A stretch of 63,198 bases of DNA, filler included, from an uncultured Methanosarcinales archaeon (GTDB lineage: Archaea; Nanobdellota; Nanobdellia; Woesearchaeales; JACPBV01): assembly GCA_964492935.1 (NCBI GenBank). It is 3 parts of 3 records of this genome, joined end to end, with 100 filler letters (N's around TTAATTAATTAA, not from the genome) between each part and the next. Parts side by side here need not be neighbours in the genome. Positions count along the whole stretch, not along the records: positions 25,437 to 49,695 come from CAZBLF010000017.1; 2 more parts are not named here. One strand, given 5' to 3'. Of the stretch, positions 27,001-33,000 are shown piece after piece (within the stretch, counting starts at the first letter, position 1; each line of letters starts with the position of its first letter). A program made the position numbers.

Positions 27001-30000
27001 ACTTGCCTTCCCTCTTCTGTTTAGCATAGAGTATAATCTTCTTCACATCAGACGACGGATTCTTGTCCCAAATCAATCTACCTGTCTTTGTACCCTCAAC
27101 CTCTTCCTGCTCGAATCCAGTATAGGCGAGTGGCTTAAAACTATCCCAAAACTGCATCCCAATCTTGATCGAAACCGGCGTTCCATCCCACCGATGACTA
27201 AAAGAATCATCAGTTATCTCAAAAACCAGCACATAGTCTTGCTTATTATCCGTCGGTGTTACTGTAAACGCACTAAATTCCGAGACCATGCGAGCAAGCG
27301 TAGGTTCTCCCTCAACACCATCTTTTTCTCCCAGGATCGCACCAGTACACCATTCGATATCGCTACCTTCGTGCACAACATTATAATCTTTTGCCTGCAA
27401 CAAACACTGCTCAAACTCCCCTTTGTACAGCTCTACAGCACCCTTCACCCGATCCATCCCCTTCAAAAAGTCATAATCCGAACTAATTCTAAATGCCGGC
27501 TTAATCGCATACACAACAGGCTCTATCTCTCGACACATATCCTCCCAATAACATCCCAATGTGCAAGGATCAAAGTCACACTGTATCTCATTGAGGTAAT
27601 CATCACATTCATTAGATTTTTTTGTACATATCTGCTCCGCCGAATCCTTACTACGACGAGCGGCATTCTGTCGCTTCAATCCAATGCCGGCCTCATTAAT
27701 CAAAGAGGCAGCTCTAGCTGAGGGAAAAACCGCATCTTTCGTCCCAATGCCAACCACTTCAAGCCCACTCCCTTTTTCCTCGTACACCAAATCAAAGTTA
27801 TCGAGGGGAATATTTTTTCCGGGAAAACGAAGTAGGTAACTATCTAATCGAGTATTAAATAATCCTTCAAAAGACTCCTGTAAGGCACCCTCCGTAGGAG
27901 TGCATCGGTGACGTTTCCTATCTTCCATCGATTTACTTCGTTCACTCTCGTCAATAGACTCCCAAACACCGTTTTCACATATTCCTCCGGCCTTAGTAAA
28001 AAACTCAGTTATCGTATCCTGGAGCACATACTCTGCACTCTGATCGACATACAGTAATGCCTTATGGCCTGAAGCGATTGCTTTGAGCTGCTCACTCTGC
28101 AACTCTCCTGTCTGCCCAGTATAAGGAACGATCTTTTGAGACATCTGTAGCGAGAACATCATCAAGAGTATAGAAGTAAATACAATCAAACTCAAACCCA
28201 TGGCAATCAATCCTTTTTTGTCCTTCATCGATATAGCTCCAGCCGATACTCCAAAGGCACTCGATCTCGTTGAGGCAACACAAAATCAAAAGAGTAGTCT
28301 TTCTTAGAAGCATAACATCCCTTAGTGCATTTTTTAGTAAGGAGACTATCTCCCAAATAAAGTTTGAATTTCTTATAAGAGGTTGTTTCAACTAATACCT
28401 TAAGCAATGCCTCATTTATTTCTGTAGAACGATCAACTCCCGTCGTCCCATCAATAGGCTCATAACTCAATATTTCGCGCAAGGGTTTAGTACCTACTTC
28501 GTACTCCAACAATCCTAGCAATAAAACAGTATCAGTATGTTCATCAAATGAAACTTTAATTGCAACCTCCTCCTTTCCGGCGATCTGAGGCTTTATACAT
28601 TGGGTCATCAGGACAAAAATGAAGAGCACAAATATCCAAAACATCACAAAGACTGCACGATCCGCACCCGTCCCTCTTTTCGATTTCATCGGTAAAACAT
28701 AACCCCCTCAGTCAAATGAAGAGTCTTACCTGCAACAACAACCGGATACCTCAACTGAGTCCCACCAAAAACATTCCCGTTCTGATACACCGCAGAAGCA
28801 GCCCGATAAAGCTCAAGATTAAATCCCACAGGGTTCTGGCCCTGAAGTGTTAAAGCACCTGCAAAATCAGGATCTCCCAAGAACAATTTCTCAACCTGAT
28901 CCTGTGTAATCTTTTCCGAGTCAACAATCCAAGGATAGGTCCTTCCTGTAAGATTATCCTCCAGAAAAATAGAATCTCCACTAAATGCCAATCTGCTAGA
29001 GTACAGATAATGCTCCATATTGTAGGTATCGGCAGATCCCTTAAAGACAGAGAAAAACAAAACCGCGAATAATCCTAAGATAACAACAATGCCGACCATG
29101 TACCCCATGATATAGAAAACTAAATCAGACAACCCTCTCTTATTATTAAACAGCCTAGACAATTGCATCCTGGATAACCCCTGGCAATTGCGATTTAGTT
29201 TGTGTACTCGTAAGTTCAGCATAACTAGCCTCATCGCGCAGGCTGCCAATTTCAAGAATCAAGCCGGCAACGTCAGGTCTGAGAAGCGGAACGAATCCCT
29301 CTCCCTCGCCACCTATAAGTTGAGCCTCATCAAGGGGAATAAGAGCAACTCCCTCAAGGCTAAGACTAGGAACATCCAAGAGATTATTCAGAATCTCACA
29401 TCCAAGACCTTTAGAAACTTCCAGAATCTCCTTAGGAGAATTCTTAAGATAATATGCTTTGATCGTTTTCCCAGCGAACGCCGAGCCAACGTGAATACTT
29501 ACAATTAAATCAACCTCCTTTTTTTGGCTAGCAGCCTGGATATCATTCGTAGACTTCCTCCGACCATCCTGCATTCGAGTGTAAAAAACATCCTCGATCT
29601 GAGTAGAAAGCAGCAGTTCCAAACTACTACCAAAGACATGAGTGAGTTCAGATTCTCTACGCCCATTGTAAACATGCCCATCATCTGCACCATGAGCAGC
29701 ATCAACTATAATGTGCTTAAAACCATGTTTACCTACCTCACAATCAAGGCTATGCAAGGAATAAGCGCGAGATCCATCTCCTTGATCCATAAACAATCCA
29801 TCATTAATGCGCGCAAACACCGGTTTCACCTTAGTCTTCTCAACGAGATTAGTAGAAATCTTCTCGCCAGCAAACCGTGGCGCCAAACTACCTTCATTGA
29901 CCGTTGCATGTCGATCGGCAAGAAAAGGATAGCTTGCTAGTTCAGTAATCGGCCTTGTTTCATCGTGAATTCCAACTACATTATCCTTAATGCGCAAACC

Positions 30001-33000
30001 AAACCATTTCATATTTTTATCATACGTAACAATCATATTCCCGGGAGAGGCATACAACGTATTAATCACCATCGCAACATCCCGTGCAAGAAAATTAGCC
30101 TCAAATCCTACTTCCTCAGTAATATTGACAATCTCCTTCATAATCGGTAGAAAATAAAACGCCGCAATCAACAAAAGACCAAAAATAGCTATAGGAATAA
30201 CGGCAGGTATCTCGCTTTGGCCCCTCTTTCCCATAGACCCTCCCTCGAAGAAATGAGTTTATATATCTTATGTTATTTTTTCAATGTACTTAACGTAATC
30301 AAGGTATGTTGCACCTTAGAATTATCTTTACTAGCATCAACTTTCTTTTCAATAGAAAACCCCAGATCTACAGTCGCAATCTTATCATCTCCCTCCTTGA
30401 AATCAAAATCAACAATCTCTCCCTCCTTGCTCAAAATCTGGTGACAATACGGAGCTATTTTTTCGGCTCCCGTCGACTGCAAACACATCTTCGGCTCAGA
30501 TGCACAGTCAACCCCGCGTACCTGACTAGCCTCCGTACAGCGAGAGTAAAGCCTAATAATATTATTTGTGGTGAGAGCTAAAGGAATACTCGACGCCTGA
30601 CCCTTATGAAACTGAGTAACATATTCTGCAATTGAATCAAACGTCTCATAATTCACATTTTGAATATGTGCTTTTTGAGACTGACTGCACCATTTAGCAA
30701 CTGCAGGAATAAACACTATCAGAAAGACTACCAATATCGTCATCTGCAAGACTTCAGTCCAGGGCTGGTCGACAACACTCCCTTTCTTATTTTTTCTTAG
30801 CCCCATCTTTGGCTGGCTCAGTTATTTACTATAGGAGAACTCTGATAGCAATCCTTATCTCCACAATCACTAAAGGTGCCTGTAACCTTTTCCCAAGTTC
30901 TCCCGTTAGCAGGAGTGGGAGGCGTATCAGCACATTTTCTATTAGTATCAAAAAGACTCTTACATGCAGTTCCATCAGCCTGATTTAAAGCAGAATCAGC
31001 AGTTGTTTTGTAACCTTTAGTATATGTAAGAATACTCTCCTTGAAAATAAAACCAACAATAATCAATACCAACACCCCTAACGAGGCGATGATAATCATC
31101 GTAAACGAAAGCCCCTGACCCTTTTTCCGAACCATACACAAAAACTCCATTTTCAAATATTTAAACCTTTGCAAAGGGAAAGCTATTTATACAGAAAATC
31201 CAGTATAGCAGCAATGAACAAAAAAGCGATTGTTTGGTTGGTAATAGCGCTTGTAGTGATGGTCGCAGCAAGTTTCTGGCTCTTCGGAGAGCCAGGTATC
31301 AATGAAGCCGACCCAGAAACGTGGATCATACGAACTTCTCAAACACAAGCGGGTGTCGATTTGCAGGGCGCAACGGCGGGCAAGAGCTTCCTCAACGAAC
31401 AAGGGCTGCAATACCTTTCCGCTACTACCGCAACCACATTTGCCTTAGAAGGATGGTATCAAGGTAAACATTTCAGGCAAGTGTATGCTGATCAAGACGG
31501 GAGAGTTCAAATGAGAATCACCCCGAAGATGCAACCTTACGATGGTATCCCAGAAGGATTCATTTTGCAAAAGTTAGATCCTCCTGAGGCCTACATTTTC
31601 CTTGACCTAGACTGGAAGGAGAAGTATCCACAATCCGTGATCTACTGGGGACGCTTCTTCGAAAATGAACAGGCAGTTGATTTTTCCTCAGAAGTAAAAG
31701 GGATATATATAGACCGAATAGAAGATGACATTTCAAGATTCCAGGAGAACTTCAATATCCATGACGGTGGAGTGATGGTGGGAATTCTAAACGAGGATGA
31801 AACTTCTACGCTTATCCGATTGTCCTAAGTTTTTCCAATACTAAGTGTGCCCCACCCGCTCTTCTGCCATTCCTGAATCTCTTTTGAATCACGAGACGTA
31901 TCTCCGGTACCTCCAAAGCAAGCAGACACGGAAGGGATATGTCGAGGCCAAGCACCACATTTTTGTAATGCATATGAACCCGCTACAGCACCTAGTTCGA
32001 CACCTGAGACTGCAAGGGTCACAACGGCACCTGCCGATGTACCTCCCGAAATAGGAATCAGCGCTACAGCTGCGATTATCGCTGCCACATTAGCTGCAGT
32101 CGTAGCATATTCAAGATTAAGATTTCTTCCAGTATAGCAAAAATTGTTACCCCCATTCCAGTTAGAGTAGGAATCGAGGCGCGGAGTTGCAGAAACGCAA
32201 GGAATAGTAACTCTTCTTGATCCAGAGAACCGATTCGTCTTCGTAGGGACGAAAGTCTGCACGACGTCGGTTTCCCTACATACCTTGACTGCATTGACTT
32301 GTTCTGCGGTGGGCTGAGCTACAATATAGTTCCGAGGTAAAATATCCTTAATGAGATCATCAAGATAATCACTCTTGAGAAATCGTTTCATTTGCATCTT
32401 ATAAATGAGCTTACTGGTAGATTTGAACCAAACTAAGTTTCCATAATTGTTAGCTGGAGAATTGAGGAACAAGGGAAGATTTCTTTCTCGTCGATCCTGC
32501 AATCTTGACCATTCCAACTGAATCTTTGAAAAAACAAATGTCTCATCTGGAGAACTATAGAGGTATGTTAAACTAGTAGGGTCTTCAATGGGCCCTCTAT
32601 GACTAAAAATATTATTGAGCCGTTCATGACGCTCAGTATTTCTCATAAGGTCCCAATTAATTTCTAATACATCGCTTGGCTTCTCCCTAGGGTTTTTCCA
32701 AAATCTCTTAGAAAAGGGTAACCTCCAGACAGATTTAAAAGTTTGGGGGAGATCAAACGAGTCAATGTTGGGATTTTCATAAAAGAGCCCTCGTACGAGA
32801 TGTGCTAGTTCCTCCTTATCCCAATCATCAAGAGAAAGTTCACCTGAAACGATGGAGACAGAAGTAAGGTCGGAGACGAAATTGCTAGAAAAAACCTCGA
32901 GAAATCGCCGAAACCGTACCTCGTCCAGATCAAGAAGAGGAGTTAATTCAAGAAGGAATTCAATCTTATCATTTTTTCCATAAGGAGTTCCTACATGGTT

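What a model noticed while it worked through the whole genome (the two positions that open the first line are those of the whole stretch)
29155..30234. Peptidoglycan amidase with a pilin-type signal peptide inside a 19-gene type IV pilus locus
In a run of 19 co-oriented genes that mostly start with a class III (prepilin) signal peptide, one (g00763, 359 aa) carries an N-acetylmuramoyl-L-alanine amidase domain behind that signal, although no murein synthesis genes were seen. I read it as a wall-cutting enzyme built into or delivered by the pilus, a tool to open the wall of a bacterial host or prey. That would point to bacteria as partners of this DPANN line and give a first pilus-borne lysin in archaea.
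Evidence so far: C17:1308-15573, genes g00760-g00778 on one strand; 16 of the 19 match my pattern [KR]G[QAFS..] plus a hydrophobic helix within the first 45 residues; they include the 1383-aa g00767 and small paralogs g00772-g00775. g00763 starts MGKRGQSEIPAVIPIAIFGLLLIAAF; Pfam Amidase_3 residues 175-358, model 1-172 of 174, E 5.7e-14. Prepilin peptidase g00028 present. Second amidase g00124 (Amidase_2, C2:5922-7076). Amidase_3 on record in 11% of Woesearchaeales, 2.5% of Archaea, 71% of Bacteria. No PHROG match in the locus.
(Added by a program. Inside this text positions count along the whole contig: they may not be those of the stretch shown here. "Call 12" and the like, gene names such as g00115 and contig names such as C1 are that model's own, and its searches are not shown. 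The text may have been shortened before it was handed on; [...] marks where a part breaks off. The agent that wrote the report below was given it as the finding of a first reader that could run no searches.)

Follow-up and report, generated by a model that had tools for sequence, protein, structure and literature searches.

The report
Pilin-anchored murein amidase in Woesearchaeota
A small marine DPANN archaeon encodes a bacterial-type cell-wall-cutting enzyme fused to a pilin-like anchor, in a gene-cluster slot where relatives carry other wall-cutting enzymes, which suggests these archaea work on bacterial cell walls.

Summary
Window 29155-30234 (-) encodes a 359-aa protein with three parts:
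- a class III (prepilin-type) leader, MGKRG|Q;
- a predicted long-helix plus beta-sheet module;
- an Amidase_3 domain (Pfam 49.3 bits; fold Z 17-20.6 to 14 solved murein amidases) with the H181/E194/H248/E328 tetrad intact.

It lies among 17 co-oriented ORFs that all begin with such leaders.

"Only 3 homologs" is wrong.
- An exhaustive search gave 220 cluster representatives.
- A family profile matched 242 of 301 genomes of the phylum.
- The gene order around it is conserved.

Two results pull in opposite directions.
- Against a lysin: only 53 of 116 full-length relatives keep the tetrad, with at least 7 independent changes of state. The nearest relative lacks H181. Some relatives have no enzyme domain.
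- For a lysin: in the same slot other genomes carry NlpC/P60, or a degenerate amidase followed by Peptidase_M23 or Peptidase_M15.

The genome showed no murein-synthesis hallmarks, and it has a second, Tat-type Amidase_2.

Best reading (0.55): a modular minor pilin that presents an active amidase to foreign bacterial murein. Its place in a filament and its activity are inferred. I rate it a new variant of a known kind, an archaeal counterpart of bacterial modular pilins.

The parts
29155..30234 (-). Gene for the 359-aa modular pilin-like amidase (stop codon at 29155-29157)
   Evidence: ORF. Pfam Amidase_3. AF2 model with pLDDT 90.3.
30220..30234 (-). Class III (prepilin-type) leader MGKRG. The predicted cut is after G5, with Gln at +1.
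   Evidence: Read from the sequence. The leader form of M. maripaludis EppA substrates is 5-13 aa ending in Gly, with +1 Gln (PMC3875500 passage). Cleavage itself is inferred.
29725..30219 (-). Pilin-like carrier module, residues 6-170. It has a predicted helix of about 50 residues (9-62) packed on a beta-sheet, and the conserved motif around D52 and Y71.
   Evidence: AF2 models. D52 is kept in 111 of 116 and Y71 in 106 of 116. Free-standing versions of about 140-180 aa exist. Fold matches to pilins and pseudopilins are weak only.
29158..29724 (-). Amidase_3 (N-acetylmuramoyl-L-alanine amidase) module, residues 171-359
   Evidence: Pfam. VIA-align Z 17.0-20.6 to 14 solved murein amidases, with the next class at Z 11.4. 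Foldseek E 3.5e-10 to 1e-5. The family profile against PDB sequences gave 15 amidases.
29692..29694 (-). H181, first predicted Zn ligand (DAAHG)
29653..29655 (-). E194, second predicted Zn ligand
29491..29493 (-). H248, third predicted Zn ligand (SIH)
29251..29253 (-). E328, predicted catalytic glutamate (LILEIG)
29398..29742 (-). Span between the C165 codon (29740-29742) and the C279 codon (29398-29400). This cysteine pair is nearly invariant and probably forms a disulfide between the linker and the amidase helix.
   Evidence: C165 is kept in 106 and C279 in 104 of 116, more often than any catalytic residue. The disulfide is inferred.
26744..29168 (-). Three downstream genes with overlapping start and stop codons: 160 aa (28686-29168), 154 aa (28225-28689) and 494 aa (26744-28228). 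All have class-III-like leaders and follow the amidase gene in relatives too.
   Evidence: for the overlaps (14, 4 and 4 nt). for synteny in L005, L014, L015 and L016.
30273..41027 (-). Upstream part of the cluster, 13 further class-III-like ORFs. They include four small pilin paralogs (37550-38935), a 47-aa Flp-like ORF (35979-36122) and a 1385-aa protein (31825-35982).
   Evidence: Homologs lie in the same order in relatives. None has a Pfam, NCBIfam or PHROG family, apart from one weak NCBIfam hit below its cut-off.
31169..31828 (+). Conserved 219-aa gene on the opposite strand inside the cluster, with an N-terminal hydrophobic anchor
   Evidence: It is 42-44% identical over 175-213 aa in L014 and L015, and 33% in L020.

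Best explanation
The gene encodes a modular minor pilin. A class III leader and a pilin-like carrier module (residues 1-170) are joined to a zinc-dependent N-acetylmuramoyl-L-alanine amidase module (171-359).

It fills one conserved slot of a pilin gene cluster found across Woesearchaeota-type DPANN. The cluster is of the Epd type, with leaders ending in G and Gln at +1.

Proposed mechanism:
1. The single prepilin peptidase (contig C1) removes the leader.
2. The ATPase and the adjacent polytopic membrane protein (contig C12) assemble the cluster's products.
3. The amidase-bearing subunit is exposed outside the cell, most likely at a filament tip together with the three translationally coupled downstream subunits.
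4. There it cuts stem peptides from the glycan strands of foreign bacterial murein. This thins or opens the wall of a bacterial partner or prey at the contact site, and may also release peptides.

Shown: the domain architecture, the intact catalytic tetrad, the Amidase_3 fold, the conserved synteny, the exchange of hydrolase modules in the slot, and the lack of murein-synthesis hallmarks.

Inferred: leader cleavage, incorporation into a filament, enzymatic activity, and the identity of the substrate and partner.
For: - **Architecture and fold:** Pfam Amidase_3 at 49.3 bits. Z 17.0-20.6 to 14 solved murein amidases, well above the next class at 11.4. The H/E/H/E residues lie in the motif columns of Cwp6 and 4rn7.
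- **Domain size:** the module has about 189 residues, like the compact lytic enzymes CwlV and 4rn7.
- **Clade conservation:** in the starred clade of 8 sequences that holds the query, 7 keep the tetrad.
- **Carrier module:** leader MGKRG|Q. A helix 9-62 plus beta-sheet is predicted at pLDDT 90.3 and 85.6.
- **Cluster:** 17 co-oriented ORFs with such leaders; the regex hits are enriched on this contig, 13 of 53 genome-wide.
- **Machinery elsewhere in the genome:** one Peptidase_A24. One T2SSE ATPase followed by a 738-aa protein with 8 hydrophobic segments. Scattered pilin genes apart from the ATPase and platform genes are described for DPANN (PMC13705601 passages).
- **Conserved slot:** neighbours on both sides are homologous in 4 close and 6 more distant relatives.
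- **Module exchange in that slot:**
  - P0111 carries NlpC/P60 (E 7.4e-16) and P0115 carries NAGPA.
  - G250 carries a degenerate amidase plus Peptidase_M23 (E 1.3e-24). G061 carries a degenerate amidase plus Peptidase_M15_4 (E 7.9e-22). G271 carries VWA.
  - For G061, G250 and G271 (and for the G327 variant, whose C-terminal tail has no Pfam family) synteny was confirmed.
- **Not its own wall:** 0 hits for PF00905 and PF01098.
- **Second wall enzyme:** a 384-aa Amidase_2 protein whose N-terminus reads like a Tat signal by eye.
- **Gene integrity:** contigs at least 99% alike, with no insertions or deletions, in 4 further metagenome runs.
Against: - Only 53 of 116 full-length representatives keep the tetrad. 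The changes need at least 7 and up to 21 events on the tree.
- The nearest homolog, P0002 (63-65% identical), lacks H181.
- The cysteine pair and the N-module residues are better conserved than the active site. The family's common function therefore does not need catalysis.
- Many family members are free-standing N-modules without any enzyme.
- 17 of the 20 variant ORFs that I picked had no recognisable domain.
- The N-module has no pilin Pfam or NCBIfam match.
- It has no significant Foldseek match, and only Z <= 3.9 to solved pilins.
- Glu is at +3, not +5.
- No T2SSF platform family was found in the genome.
- No data bear on processing, filament location, activity or partner.
Confidence: 0.55

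Rival explanations
1. Surface-anchored scavenging enzyme, like a bindosome. The class III leader and hydrophobic helix only tether the amidase to the cell surface, or to a short pseudopilus. The enzyme trims free murein fragments for uptake of peptides and amino sugars by an auxotrophic cell. It is not part of an extended pilus and does not attack living bacteria.
For:
- From my own knowledge, not checked here: archaeal class III leaders are also known on non-pilin surface proteins, such as the Sulfolobus sugar-binding proteins.
- No assembly genes lie in the cluster.
- A second, apparently secreted Amidase_2 suits general murein salvage.
- The genome is small, 1.15 Mb.
- The N-module's similarity to pilins is weak.
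Against: - The gene is embedded in, and translationally coupled with, a conserved set of pilin-like genes that includes four small major-pilin-like paralogs.
- A VWA adhesion module occupies the same slot in one relative.
- Degenerate, non-catalytic versions are kept in many genomes. That is hard to explain for a purely nutritional enzyme.
Confidence: 0.2
2. Murein-binding adhesin. The Amidase_3 fold serves mainly to recognise and hold bacterial wall material, or another glycopeptide, for attachment. Any catalysis in this genome is residual.
For: - 63 of 116 representatives lack at least one tetrad residue but keep the fold's cysteine pair and length.
- The nearest homolog lacks H181.
- VWA occupies the slot in G271.
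- Degenerate amidase domains are retained upstream of M23 and M15 domains, as a binding module would be.
Against: - This genome and 6 of its 7 nearest clade members keep all four residues, although only 32-45% identical to the query.
- 53 of 116 keep them across a family with 15% mean column identity. That points to selection for catalysis where it is retained.
Confidence: 0.15
3. The substrate is not bacterial murein. It could be a component of the archaeon's own envelope or of an archaeal host, for example a pseudomurein-like or glycoprotein amide bond. It could also be an unrelated amide handled by this zinc-hydrolase fold.
For: - The wider fold class includes poly-gamma-glutamate hydrolases, carboxypeptidases and aspartoacylase at Z 8-11.
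- From my own knowledge: all cultivated DPANN have archaeal hosts.
- Substrate specificity cannot be read from the sequence.
Against: - The 14 best fold matches are all murein amidases, with a clear gap to other classes.
- The modules that replace or supplement it in relatives are, by their Pfam family names, also murein-specific peptidase families: M23, M15_4 and NlpC/P60.
- No wall-synthesis hallmarks were found in the genome.
Confidence: 0.07
4. Artefact. The gene is bacterial contamination or a chimeric assembly, or the leader resemblance is chance.
For: The source is a fragmented metagenome-assembled genome of 57 contigs.
Against: - The same fusion and the same neighbours occur in many relatives.
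- Near-identical contigs cover the region in 4 other runs, each in 3-4 pieces.
- Estimated contamination is 0.13.
- The leader motif is conserved in homologs.
Confidence: 0.02

Closest known systems
Bacterial modular type IV pilins, e.g. Streptococcus sanguinis PilB (pilin + vWA) and PilC (pilin + lectin). PMC8179133, passages and supplementary files searched.
   Same: - An N-terminal pilin module carries a functional module joined by a short linker.
- The modules vary between lineages.
- One relative here (G271) even carries a VWA module, as PilB does.
- A tip location is proposed for such pilins.
   Different: - This protein is archaeal, with an archaeal class III leader instead of the bacterial N-methylation motif IPR012902 that defined that survey.
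- The carrier module has no detectable sequence relation to bacterial pilins.
- The payload is a murein hydrolase.
- That paper's main text has no occurrence of 'archaea', 'peptidoglycan' or 'hydrolase'.
- Its held supplements do not list IPR002508, which I recall, unchecked, to be the Amidase_3 entry. IPR016047, which I recall to be M23, occurs once in an 'unclear' architecture.
Myxococcus xanthus Kil (Tad) pilus with interchangeable minor-pilin 'Tips' for contact-dependent killing. PMC12075869, passages read.
   Same: A pilus whose minor-pilin complex exposes variable C-terminal domains towards other bacteria. The genes for the minor pilins are clustered, and small Flp-like adapter pilins lie among them. 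Compare the 47-aa ORF at 35979-36122.
   Different: - The Kil system is bacterial.
- Its tips are thought to recognise prey and to work with a T3SS-like apparatus.
- No hydrolase domains are reported in the passages I read ('peptidoglycan', 'hydrolase' and 'amidase' each occur 0 times).
- Here the exposed module is itself a wall hydrolase. No second apparatus was noticed, but I did not search for one.
Compact Amidase_3 murein amidases: CwlV (1jwq), C. difficile 4rn7, CwlD (7rag), Cwp6 (5j72), PlyPSA (1xov), AmiB and AmiC (8c0j, 4bin)
   Same: The fold matches (Z 17-20.6, rmsd 2.2-3.1 A over 157-178 residues). The His/Glu/His plus Glu motif columns match.
   Different: - Sequence identity is only 11-24%.
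- Those enzymes use Sec or lipoprotein signals or wall-binding domains, not a pilin-like carrier.
- A cysteine pair ties the linker to the domain here.
- The loop at residues 302-322 is about 14 residues longer than in 4rn7 and is poorly modelled.
- The host organism makes no murein.
Methanococcus maripaludis Epd pili and EppA-type pilins. PMC3875500, passages; PMC13705601, passages.
   Same: - The leader is short, ends in Gly and has Gln at +1.
- There are several minor pilins of very different sizes.
- The pilin genes lie apart from the ATPase and platform genes.
- DPANN genomes are reported to carry system-1 (Epd-like) pilins.
   Different: - No Pfam match to the Epd pilin family here.
- Glu is at +3, not +5.
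- No enzyme-bearing Epd pilin is described in the passages I read.
Archaeal peptidoglycan hydrolases and large lytic-transglycosylase proteins of Woesearchaeota and Pacearchaeota. PMC12352652, PMC8204110, PMC9723730; passages read.
   Same: These are archaea without murein that encode exported murein hydrolases, read as tools against or for bacteria.
   Different: - Those proteins carry Sec or Tat signals or are giant multidomain proteins. None is described as pilin-fused.
- This genome gave no SLT (PF01464) match.

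Membership tests
Amidase_3 (PF01520), zinc N-acetylmuramoyl-L-alanine amidases | Match to the family profile above the curated cut-off | tested here: met
   49.3 bits against a cut-off of 27, profile positions 1-172 of 174. 51.4 bits in the six-frame genome search.
Amidase_3 (PF01520), zinc N-acetylmuramoyl-L-alanine amidases | The alpha/beta fold of the family | tested here: met
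   AF2 pLDDT 90.3. VIA-align Z 17.0-20.6 to 14 solved amidases over 157-178 residues, with the next class at 11.4. Foldseek E down to 3.5e-10.
Amidase_3 (PF01520), zinc N-acetylmuramoyl-L-alanine amidases | Zn ligands His-Glu-His plus the catalytic Glu | tested here: met
   H181, E194, H248 and E328 align with the GHG / E / IH / E motifs of 5j72 and 4rn7. The geometry in the model could not be inspected. The assignment of roles to these motifs is from my own knowledge.
Amidase_3 (PF01520), zinc N-acetylmuramoyl-L-alanine amidases | Hydrolysis of the MurNAc-L-Ala bond of murein | not testable with these tools
   Needs an enzyme assay.
Cell-division amidases AmiA/B/C (autoinhibited, activated by LytM factors) | An inserted regulatory helix that occludes the active site | tested here: inconclusive
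   The module spans 189 residues, against chain spans of 224-225 for AmiB and AmiC and 173-178 for CwlV and 4rn7 in the alignments. A poorly modelled 21-residue loop (302-322, pLDDT about 67) remains unassigned.
Archaeal type IV pilins / class III signal peptide proteins (Epd type) | A short basic leader ending in Gly or Ala, directly followed by a hydrophobic helix | tested here: met
   MGKRG|QSEIPAVIPIAIFGLLLIAAFYFL. The KRG motif and the helix are conserved in homologs. No dedicated predictor was available.
Archaeal type IV pilins / class III signal peptide proteins (Epd type) | Gln at +1 and Glu at +5, as in EppA substrates (PMC3875500 passage) | tested here: inconclusive
   Gln at +1 is present. 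Glu is at +3, not +5.
Archaeal type IV pilins / class III signal peptide proteins (Epd type) | Pilin fold: a long N-terminal helix packed on an antiparallel sheet, similar to solved pilins | tested here: inconclusive
   - The models show a helix at 9-62 (12-62 in the N-module model) and a sheet.
- The best Z is only 3.9, though about 15 of the top 50 rows are pilins or pseudopilins such as EpsI, GspI, XcpV, PilA4, PilE and PilV.
- Foldseek gave no match at E <= 0.001.
- The Atlas gave TM 0.34-0.42 to T2SS protein I, PilV and PilX_N clusters.
Archaeal type IV pilins / class III signal peptide proteins (Epd type) | Match to a curated pilin family profile | tested here: not met
   No pilin family in Pfam at E <= 0.01 or in NCBIfam for this protein.
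Archaeal type IV pilins / class III signal peptide proteins (Epd type) | Cognate machinery in the genome: prepilin peptidase, assembly ATPase and platform protein | tested here: inconclusive
   Peptidase_A24 is present and a T2SSE ATPase is present. The T2SSF family was not found in the 84.8%-complete genome. A 738-aa ORF with 8 hydrophobic segments follows the ATPase gene.
Archaeal type IV pilins / class III signal peptide proteins (Epd type) | Leader cleavage and incorporation into a filament | not testable with these tools
   Needs biochemistry or imaging.
Modular pilins (as defined in PMC8179133) | A pilin module fused through a short linker to a separate functional module, with module diversity among relatives | tested here: met
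   The model has two modules with a linker at about residues 152-173. Relatives carry Amidase_3, NlpC/P60, NAGPA, VWA, or a degenerate amidase plus M23 or M15_4.
Modular pilins (as defined in PMC8179133) | The N-terminal IPR012902 (bacterial prepilin N-methylation) signature used to define the set | not tested
   InterPro was not available. The related Pfam N_methyl family did not match. An archaeal leader would not be expected to match.
Phage endolysins | Match to a phage protein family, or a phage gene neighbourhood | tested here: not met
   0 PHROG families for all 17 locus proteins at E <= 0.001. The neighbours are pilin-like genes conserved in cellular genomes.

The most novel reading that the evidence does not exclude
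Woesearchaeota-type DPANN archaea share a pilus whose tip has an exchangeable enzymatic head. One conserved carrier pilin presents whichever bacterial-wall hydrolase a lineage has recruited: amidase, M23, M15 or NlpC/P60. Degenerate amidase domains are kept as wall-binding modules. This would be an archaeal contact device for breaching the murein of bacterial hosts or prey, and each lineage's head chemistry would point to its partner's wall type.
Probability: 0.3. Interest if true: 0.85.

Novelty: new variant of a known kind. Interest (0 to 1): 0.7.

Why it matters
The hosts of Woesearchaeota and their relatives are unknown, and all cultivated DPANN live on other archaea. A conserved surface slot filled again and again with murein-specific hydrolases of unrelated folds is independent genomic evidence that many of these archaea deal physically with bacterial walls.

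It also gives a concrete reagent. A domain of about 190 residues can be expressed and tested on defined wall chemotypes to narrow down the partners.

It extends the modular pilin principle to archaea and to enzymatic, wall-degrading payloads. That principle was surveyed in bacteria through a bacterial pilin signature.

The repeated loss of the active site, followed in two sampled cases by the addition of another hydrolase domain, is a clear example of module turnover on a fixed carrier.

Tried and rejected
- **Single-sequence search of PDB sequences:** nothing relevant (best E 0.78). The profile search worked.
- **Word-index homolog search:** 3 hits. With the N-module alignment and 'longer' lengths it returned only the query. 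Both under-report a family this divergent.
- **The search for related loci in genome contigs with the query:** 599 pattern matches, none confirmed. With alignment A1 it gave an error because no stretch was conserved enough. With P0005 it gave one locus, whose title names a Candidatus Woesearchaeota archaeon.
- **NCBIfam:** only a sub-threshold CwlD hit, 18.5 bits against 221.55.
- **Complex prediction**, amidase-pilin residues 31-359 with the next gene's product residues 44-160: no answer, score 0.00, controls not run. This is no evidence either way.
- **Sequencing runs:** 20 rows in 18 studies of marine, seawater, aquatic and hydrothermal-vent metagenomes hold the stretch or part of it. No RNA holder is listed, so nothing can be said on expression.
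- **Platform protein:** PF00482 was not found in the genome. The 738-aa ORF next to the ATPase gene gave only weak, unrelated Pfam hits.
- **SLT lytic transglycosylase (PF01464):** not found.
- **Literature searches for a pilin-fused murein hydrolase in DPANN:**
  - 'DPANN' + 'amidase' + 'pilin' gave 2 papers, neither on this.
  - 'Woesearchaeota' + 'type IV pili' + 'peptidoglycan' gave 0 papers.
  - 'Woesearchaeales' / 'bacterial host' / 'pili' / 'peptidoglycan' listed none on this among 15 shown.
  - The 2026 survey of archaeal type 4 filaments (PMC13705601) has 0 occurrences of 'amidase' and 'peptidoglycan' in its main text. I did not open its supplementary tables, which may list such genes.
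- **Considered and dropped:** phage lysin and assembly artefact.

Full report
**Layout**

The window joins three contigs of a 1.15-Mb, 57-contig genome that is 84.8% complete with 0.13 contamination. The contigs are C16 (1-25336), C17 (25437-49695) and part of C18. The finding lies on C17.

A public record that encodes a 33%-identical homolog (P0005) is titled Candidatus Woesearchaeota archaeon. The protein atlas also lists Woesearchaeota as the commonest taxon of the nearest clusters.

**The observation**

The ORF at 29155-30234 (-) encodes 359 aa starting MGKRGQSEIPAVIPIAIFGLLLIAAF. Pfam Amidase_3 matches residues 175-358 at 49.3 bits against a cut-off of 27. None of the 18 neighbouring ORFs scanned has any Pfam family. 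NCBIfam and PHROGs add nothing.

Between 26744 and 41027, 16 minus-strand ORFs of at least 60 aa, plus a 47-aa ORF at 35979-36122, begin with a basic [KR][GA] motif and then a hydrophobic helix. Ten of them have Gln at +1. A stricter pattern hit 53 ORFs in the whole genome, many of them spurious, and 13 of these lie on this contig.

One conserved gene, 31169-31828, is on the other strand. So the cluster is real, but it has 17 co-oriented class-III-type ORFs rather than 19 co-oriented genes.

The amidase gene and the next three genes overlap by 14, 4 and 4 nt. That suggests translational coupling.

**The protein**

An AlphaFold2 model built on 40 homologs has mean pLDDT 90.3. It shows:
- a helix at 9-62;
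- a beta-sheet up to about residue 151;
- an alpha/beta domain at 174-358.

That last domain matches 14 solved murein amidases at Z 17.0-20.6, with rmsd 2.2-3.1 A over 157-178 residues. They include 4rn7, CwlD, Cwp6, AmiB, CwlV, LytH, AmiC and PlyPSA. The next class, poly-gamma-glutamate hydrolase, scores 11.4. Foldseek agrees.

A profile of the family finds 15 amidases among PDB sequences. In the two alignments printed, it aligns the family's GHG, E, SIH and LxE motifs with the corresponding motifs of Cwp6 and 4rn7. In the query these are H181, E194, H248 and E328, and all are present.

The module is compact like the lytic enzymes. It has a 21-residue loop of low confidence at 302-322.

**The N-terminal module**

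Modelled alone, the N-terminal module has pLDDT 85.6 and keeps the long helix plus sheet. Its resemblance to solved pilins is weak:
- The best Z is 3.9, though about 15 of the top 50 rows are type IV pilins or T2SS pseudopilins.
- Foldseek finds nothing at E <= 0.001.
- The atlas lists T2SS protein I, PilV and PilX_N clusters at TM 0.34-0.42, beside archaeal hypothetical clusters at 0.5-0.59.

I therefore call the module pilin-like on three grounds: its leader, its architecture and its genomic company. I do not call it that on fold statistics.

**The family is large**

The exhaustive search over 1.84 billion representatives gave 220 at E <= 0.001, 27 at 1e-10 and 9 at 1e-30.

Of the 150 best, 116 have 280-420 aa, 32 are shorter than 280 aa and 2 are longer than 420 aa.

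Searches of whole genomes gave:
- with the single protein, matches in 34 of 61 related genomes, the query's own included;
- with a profile of 40 members, matches in 242 of 301 genomes drawn from the phylum. That is 240 of 299 without the two genomes flagged unpublished. All 150 listed matches have E <= 1.1e-12.

Many matches cover only profile positions 2 to about 145, in ORFs of 130-190 aa. The carrier module therefore also exists on its own.

**Synteny**

tblastn of the 19 locus proteins against 12 relatives' loci shows the amidase gene's homolog followed by homologs of the 160-, 154- and 494-aa genes. It is preceded by homologs of the 177- and 118-aa genes, the plus-strand gene, the 1385-aa gene and the 349-aa gene in the closest relatives (L005, L014, L015, L016). 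In more distant relatives the cluster's far end (357, 172 and 160 aa, and the small pilins) is conserved. The gene is thus a fixed member of a conserved cluster.

**Evidence against a lysin as the family's common function**

Using an HMM-guided alignment, 53 of 116 full-length representatives keep H-E-H-E. A plain MAFFT alignment gave 52.

By contrast, D52 is kept in 111, Y71 in 106, C165 in 106 and C279 in 104.

On a FastTree of 114 sequences (P0111 and P0115 left out because their C-terminal parts are different domains), the state needs at least 21 changes. At least 7 of them are forced by well-supported branches.

The nearest homolog, P0002 (63-65% identical), lacks H181 through a 3-residue deletion. 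Pfam recognises Amidase_3 in 66 of the 116.

**Evidence for wall hydrolysis as a selected function**

In the query's own supported clade of 8 sequences, 7 keep the tetrad.

The slot also carries other wall enzymes.
- Among the representatives, P0111 has NlpC/P60 (E 7.4e-16) directly after the carrier module, and P0115 has a NAGPA phosphodiester glycosidase domain.
- I picked by hand 20 ORFs. In each the profile matched mainly the carrier module, or the ORF was unusually long. Pfam results for them:
  - Peptidase_M15_4 in G061 (E 7.9e-22);
  - Peptidase_M23 in G250 (E 1.3e-24);
  - VWA in G271;
  - nothing in the other 17.

The M23 and M15 proteins have three parts: the carrier, an amidase-like domain with the tetrad replaced (LTGD and TKDN) but the cysteine pair kept, and the new hydrolase domain. 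These variants sit in the same position of the same cluster.

Four unrelated murein-hydrolase folds on one carrier are hard to explain unless cutting murein is what the slot is for in those lineages. The VWA case and the many degenerate cases show that binding is another use of the slot.

**Genome context**

- No Transpeptidase and no FtsW/RodA family was found. The one Mur_ligase_M ORF belongs to a family that also rings in two archaeal control genomes. The genome is incomplete.
- There is one prepilin peptidase.
- There is one T2SSE ATPase in an 805-aa ORF. It is followed by a 738-aa ORF with 8 hydrophobic segments that matches no T2SSF profile.
- A 384-aa Amidase_2 protein starts MADLEEMTRREAMQRGLGL..., which by eye is a twin-arginine signal.
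- No SLT domain was found.
- Amidase_3 reaches the cut-off in 36 of 201 sampled genomes of the order, or 35 of 200 without the unpublished G366. At least 7 of the listed places fall inside family members listed.

**Population data**

The stretch 28686-31174 is held, wholly or in part, by 20 rows from 18 studies of marine, seawater, aquatic and hydrothermal-vent metagenomes.

Contigs of four runs not marked as possible sources are at least 99% alike. They carry one substitution inside the gene (30190 T>G, in one run) and no insertions or deletions.

**Literature**

I read passages only unless stated otherwise.
- M. maripaludis EppA-type pilins have 5-13-aa leaders ending in Gly, with +1 Gln and +5 Glu, and their pilin genes are scattered (PMC3875500).
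- A 2026 survey reports that DPANN keep the ATPase and platform genes adjacent while the pilins are scattered, and that 1990 genomes carry system-1 (Epd-like) pilins. 'Amidase' and 'peptidoglycan' do not occur in its main text, and I did not open its supplements (PMC13705601).
- Woesearchaeota and Pacearchaeota with large lytic-transglycosylase proteins have been proposed to attach to or prey on bacteria (PMC8204110; PMC9723730).
- Archaeal modular murein hydrolases with Sec or Tat signals kill bacteria (PMC12352652).
- Bacterial modular pilins number more than 1,200 proteins in 264 architectures, defined by a bacterial signature (PMC8179133; supplements searched).
- Myxococcus Tad pili carry interchangeable minor-pilin tips for killing (PMC12075869).
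- Three targeted searches found no paper on a pilin-fused murein hydrolase in DPANN.

**Verdict**

It is best described as an archaeal modular pilin with a murein amidase payload, one state of an exchangeable-module slot in a conserved pilin cluster.

That this copy is an active enzyme aimed at foreign murein is likely (0.55). That it sits on a pilus tip and breaches living bacteria is possible (about 0.3).

Noticed in passing
window 31825-35982 (-): A 1385-aa protein with a class III-type leader (MNMMRNKRG|F...), a coiled-coil-like acidic stretch and hydrophobic, glycine-rich segments in the middle and near the C-terminus. It has no Pfam, NCBIfam or PHROG family. Homologs at 28-29% identity over more than 1100 aa sit in the same position in L014 and L015.
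   Followed up: partly
window 35979-36122 (-): A 47-aa ORF, MRLKKG|LAFNQLVLFILAGIALVFLLF..., whose start and stop overlap both neighbours by 4 nt. It looks like an Flp-type mini-pilin or adapter and falls below the usual ORF length cut-off.
   Followed up: no
window 31169-31828 (+): A 219-aa gene on the opposite strand in the middle of the cluster, with an N-terminal hydrophobic anchor. It is conserved at 33-44% identity in three relatives' clusters. Its function is unknown.
   Followed up: partly
G000 contig C2:5922-7076 (L053 1345-2499): A second murein amidase: a 384-aa Amidase_2 protein (E 2.3e-21) whose N-terminus (..TRREAMQRGLGLVASLLVG..AEA) reads like a twin-arginine signal.
   Followed up: partly
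G000 contig C12:5687-10281 (L027): The only T2SSE ATPase has 805 aa, with the ATPase domain at residues 468-642 behind a long N-terminal extension. The next ORF has 738 aa and 8 hydrophobic segments but matches no T2SSF profile. It may be a divergent platform protein.
   Followed up: partly
window 29508-29632: In all four metagenome runs laid on the stretch, contigs end or begin within this 125-base interval inside the amidase gene (residues about 201-242). No sequence differences were reported there. This may be an assembly-graph break caused by strain variation or a repeat word.
   Followed up: no
P0030 (617 aa): A relative in which the amidase-pilin and the homolog of the next gene (window 28686-29168) are read as one protein. 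This is either a fusion or a lost stop codon, and it fits a functional link between the two.
   Followed up: no
G108:C20:26355-26738 (-): In a genome of the same class, an amidase-like segment (profile positions 140-260, E 1.2e-15) lies inside an open frame of 2515 aa. It recalls the giant wall-hydrolase proteins described for Woesearchaeota and Pacearchaeota.
   Followed up: no
L029 149-2272 (+) (G327) and L032 177-1574 (-) (G035): Family members of 707 and 465 aa whose C-terminal tails have no Pfam family (G327: about 330 aa after a degenerate amidase-like domain; G035: about 320 aa directly after the carrier module, where the profile found no amidase-like domain). These may be further payload modules.
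   Followed up: no
window 41114-41908 (+) and 48027-49751 (+): Cysteine-rich proteins with N-terminal signal-like segments flank the cluster's contig. Neither has a Pfam family where scanned (the first was scanned).
   Followed up: no
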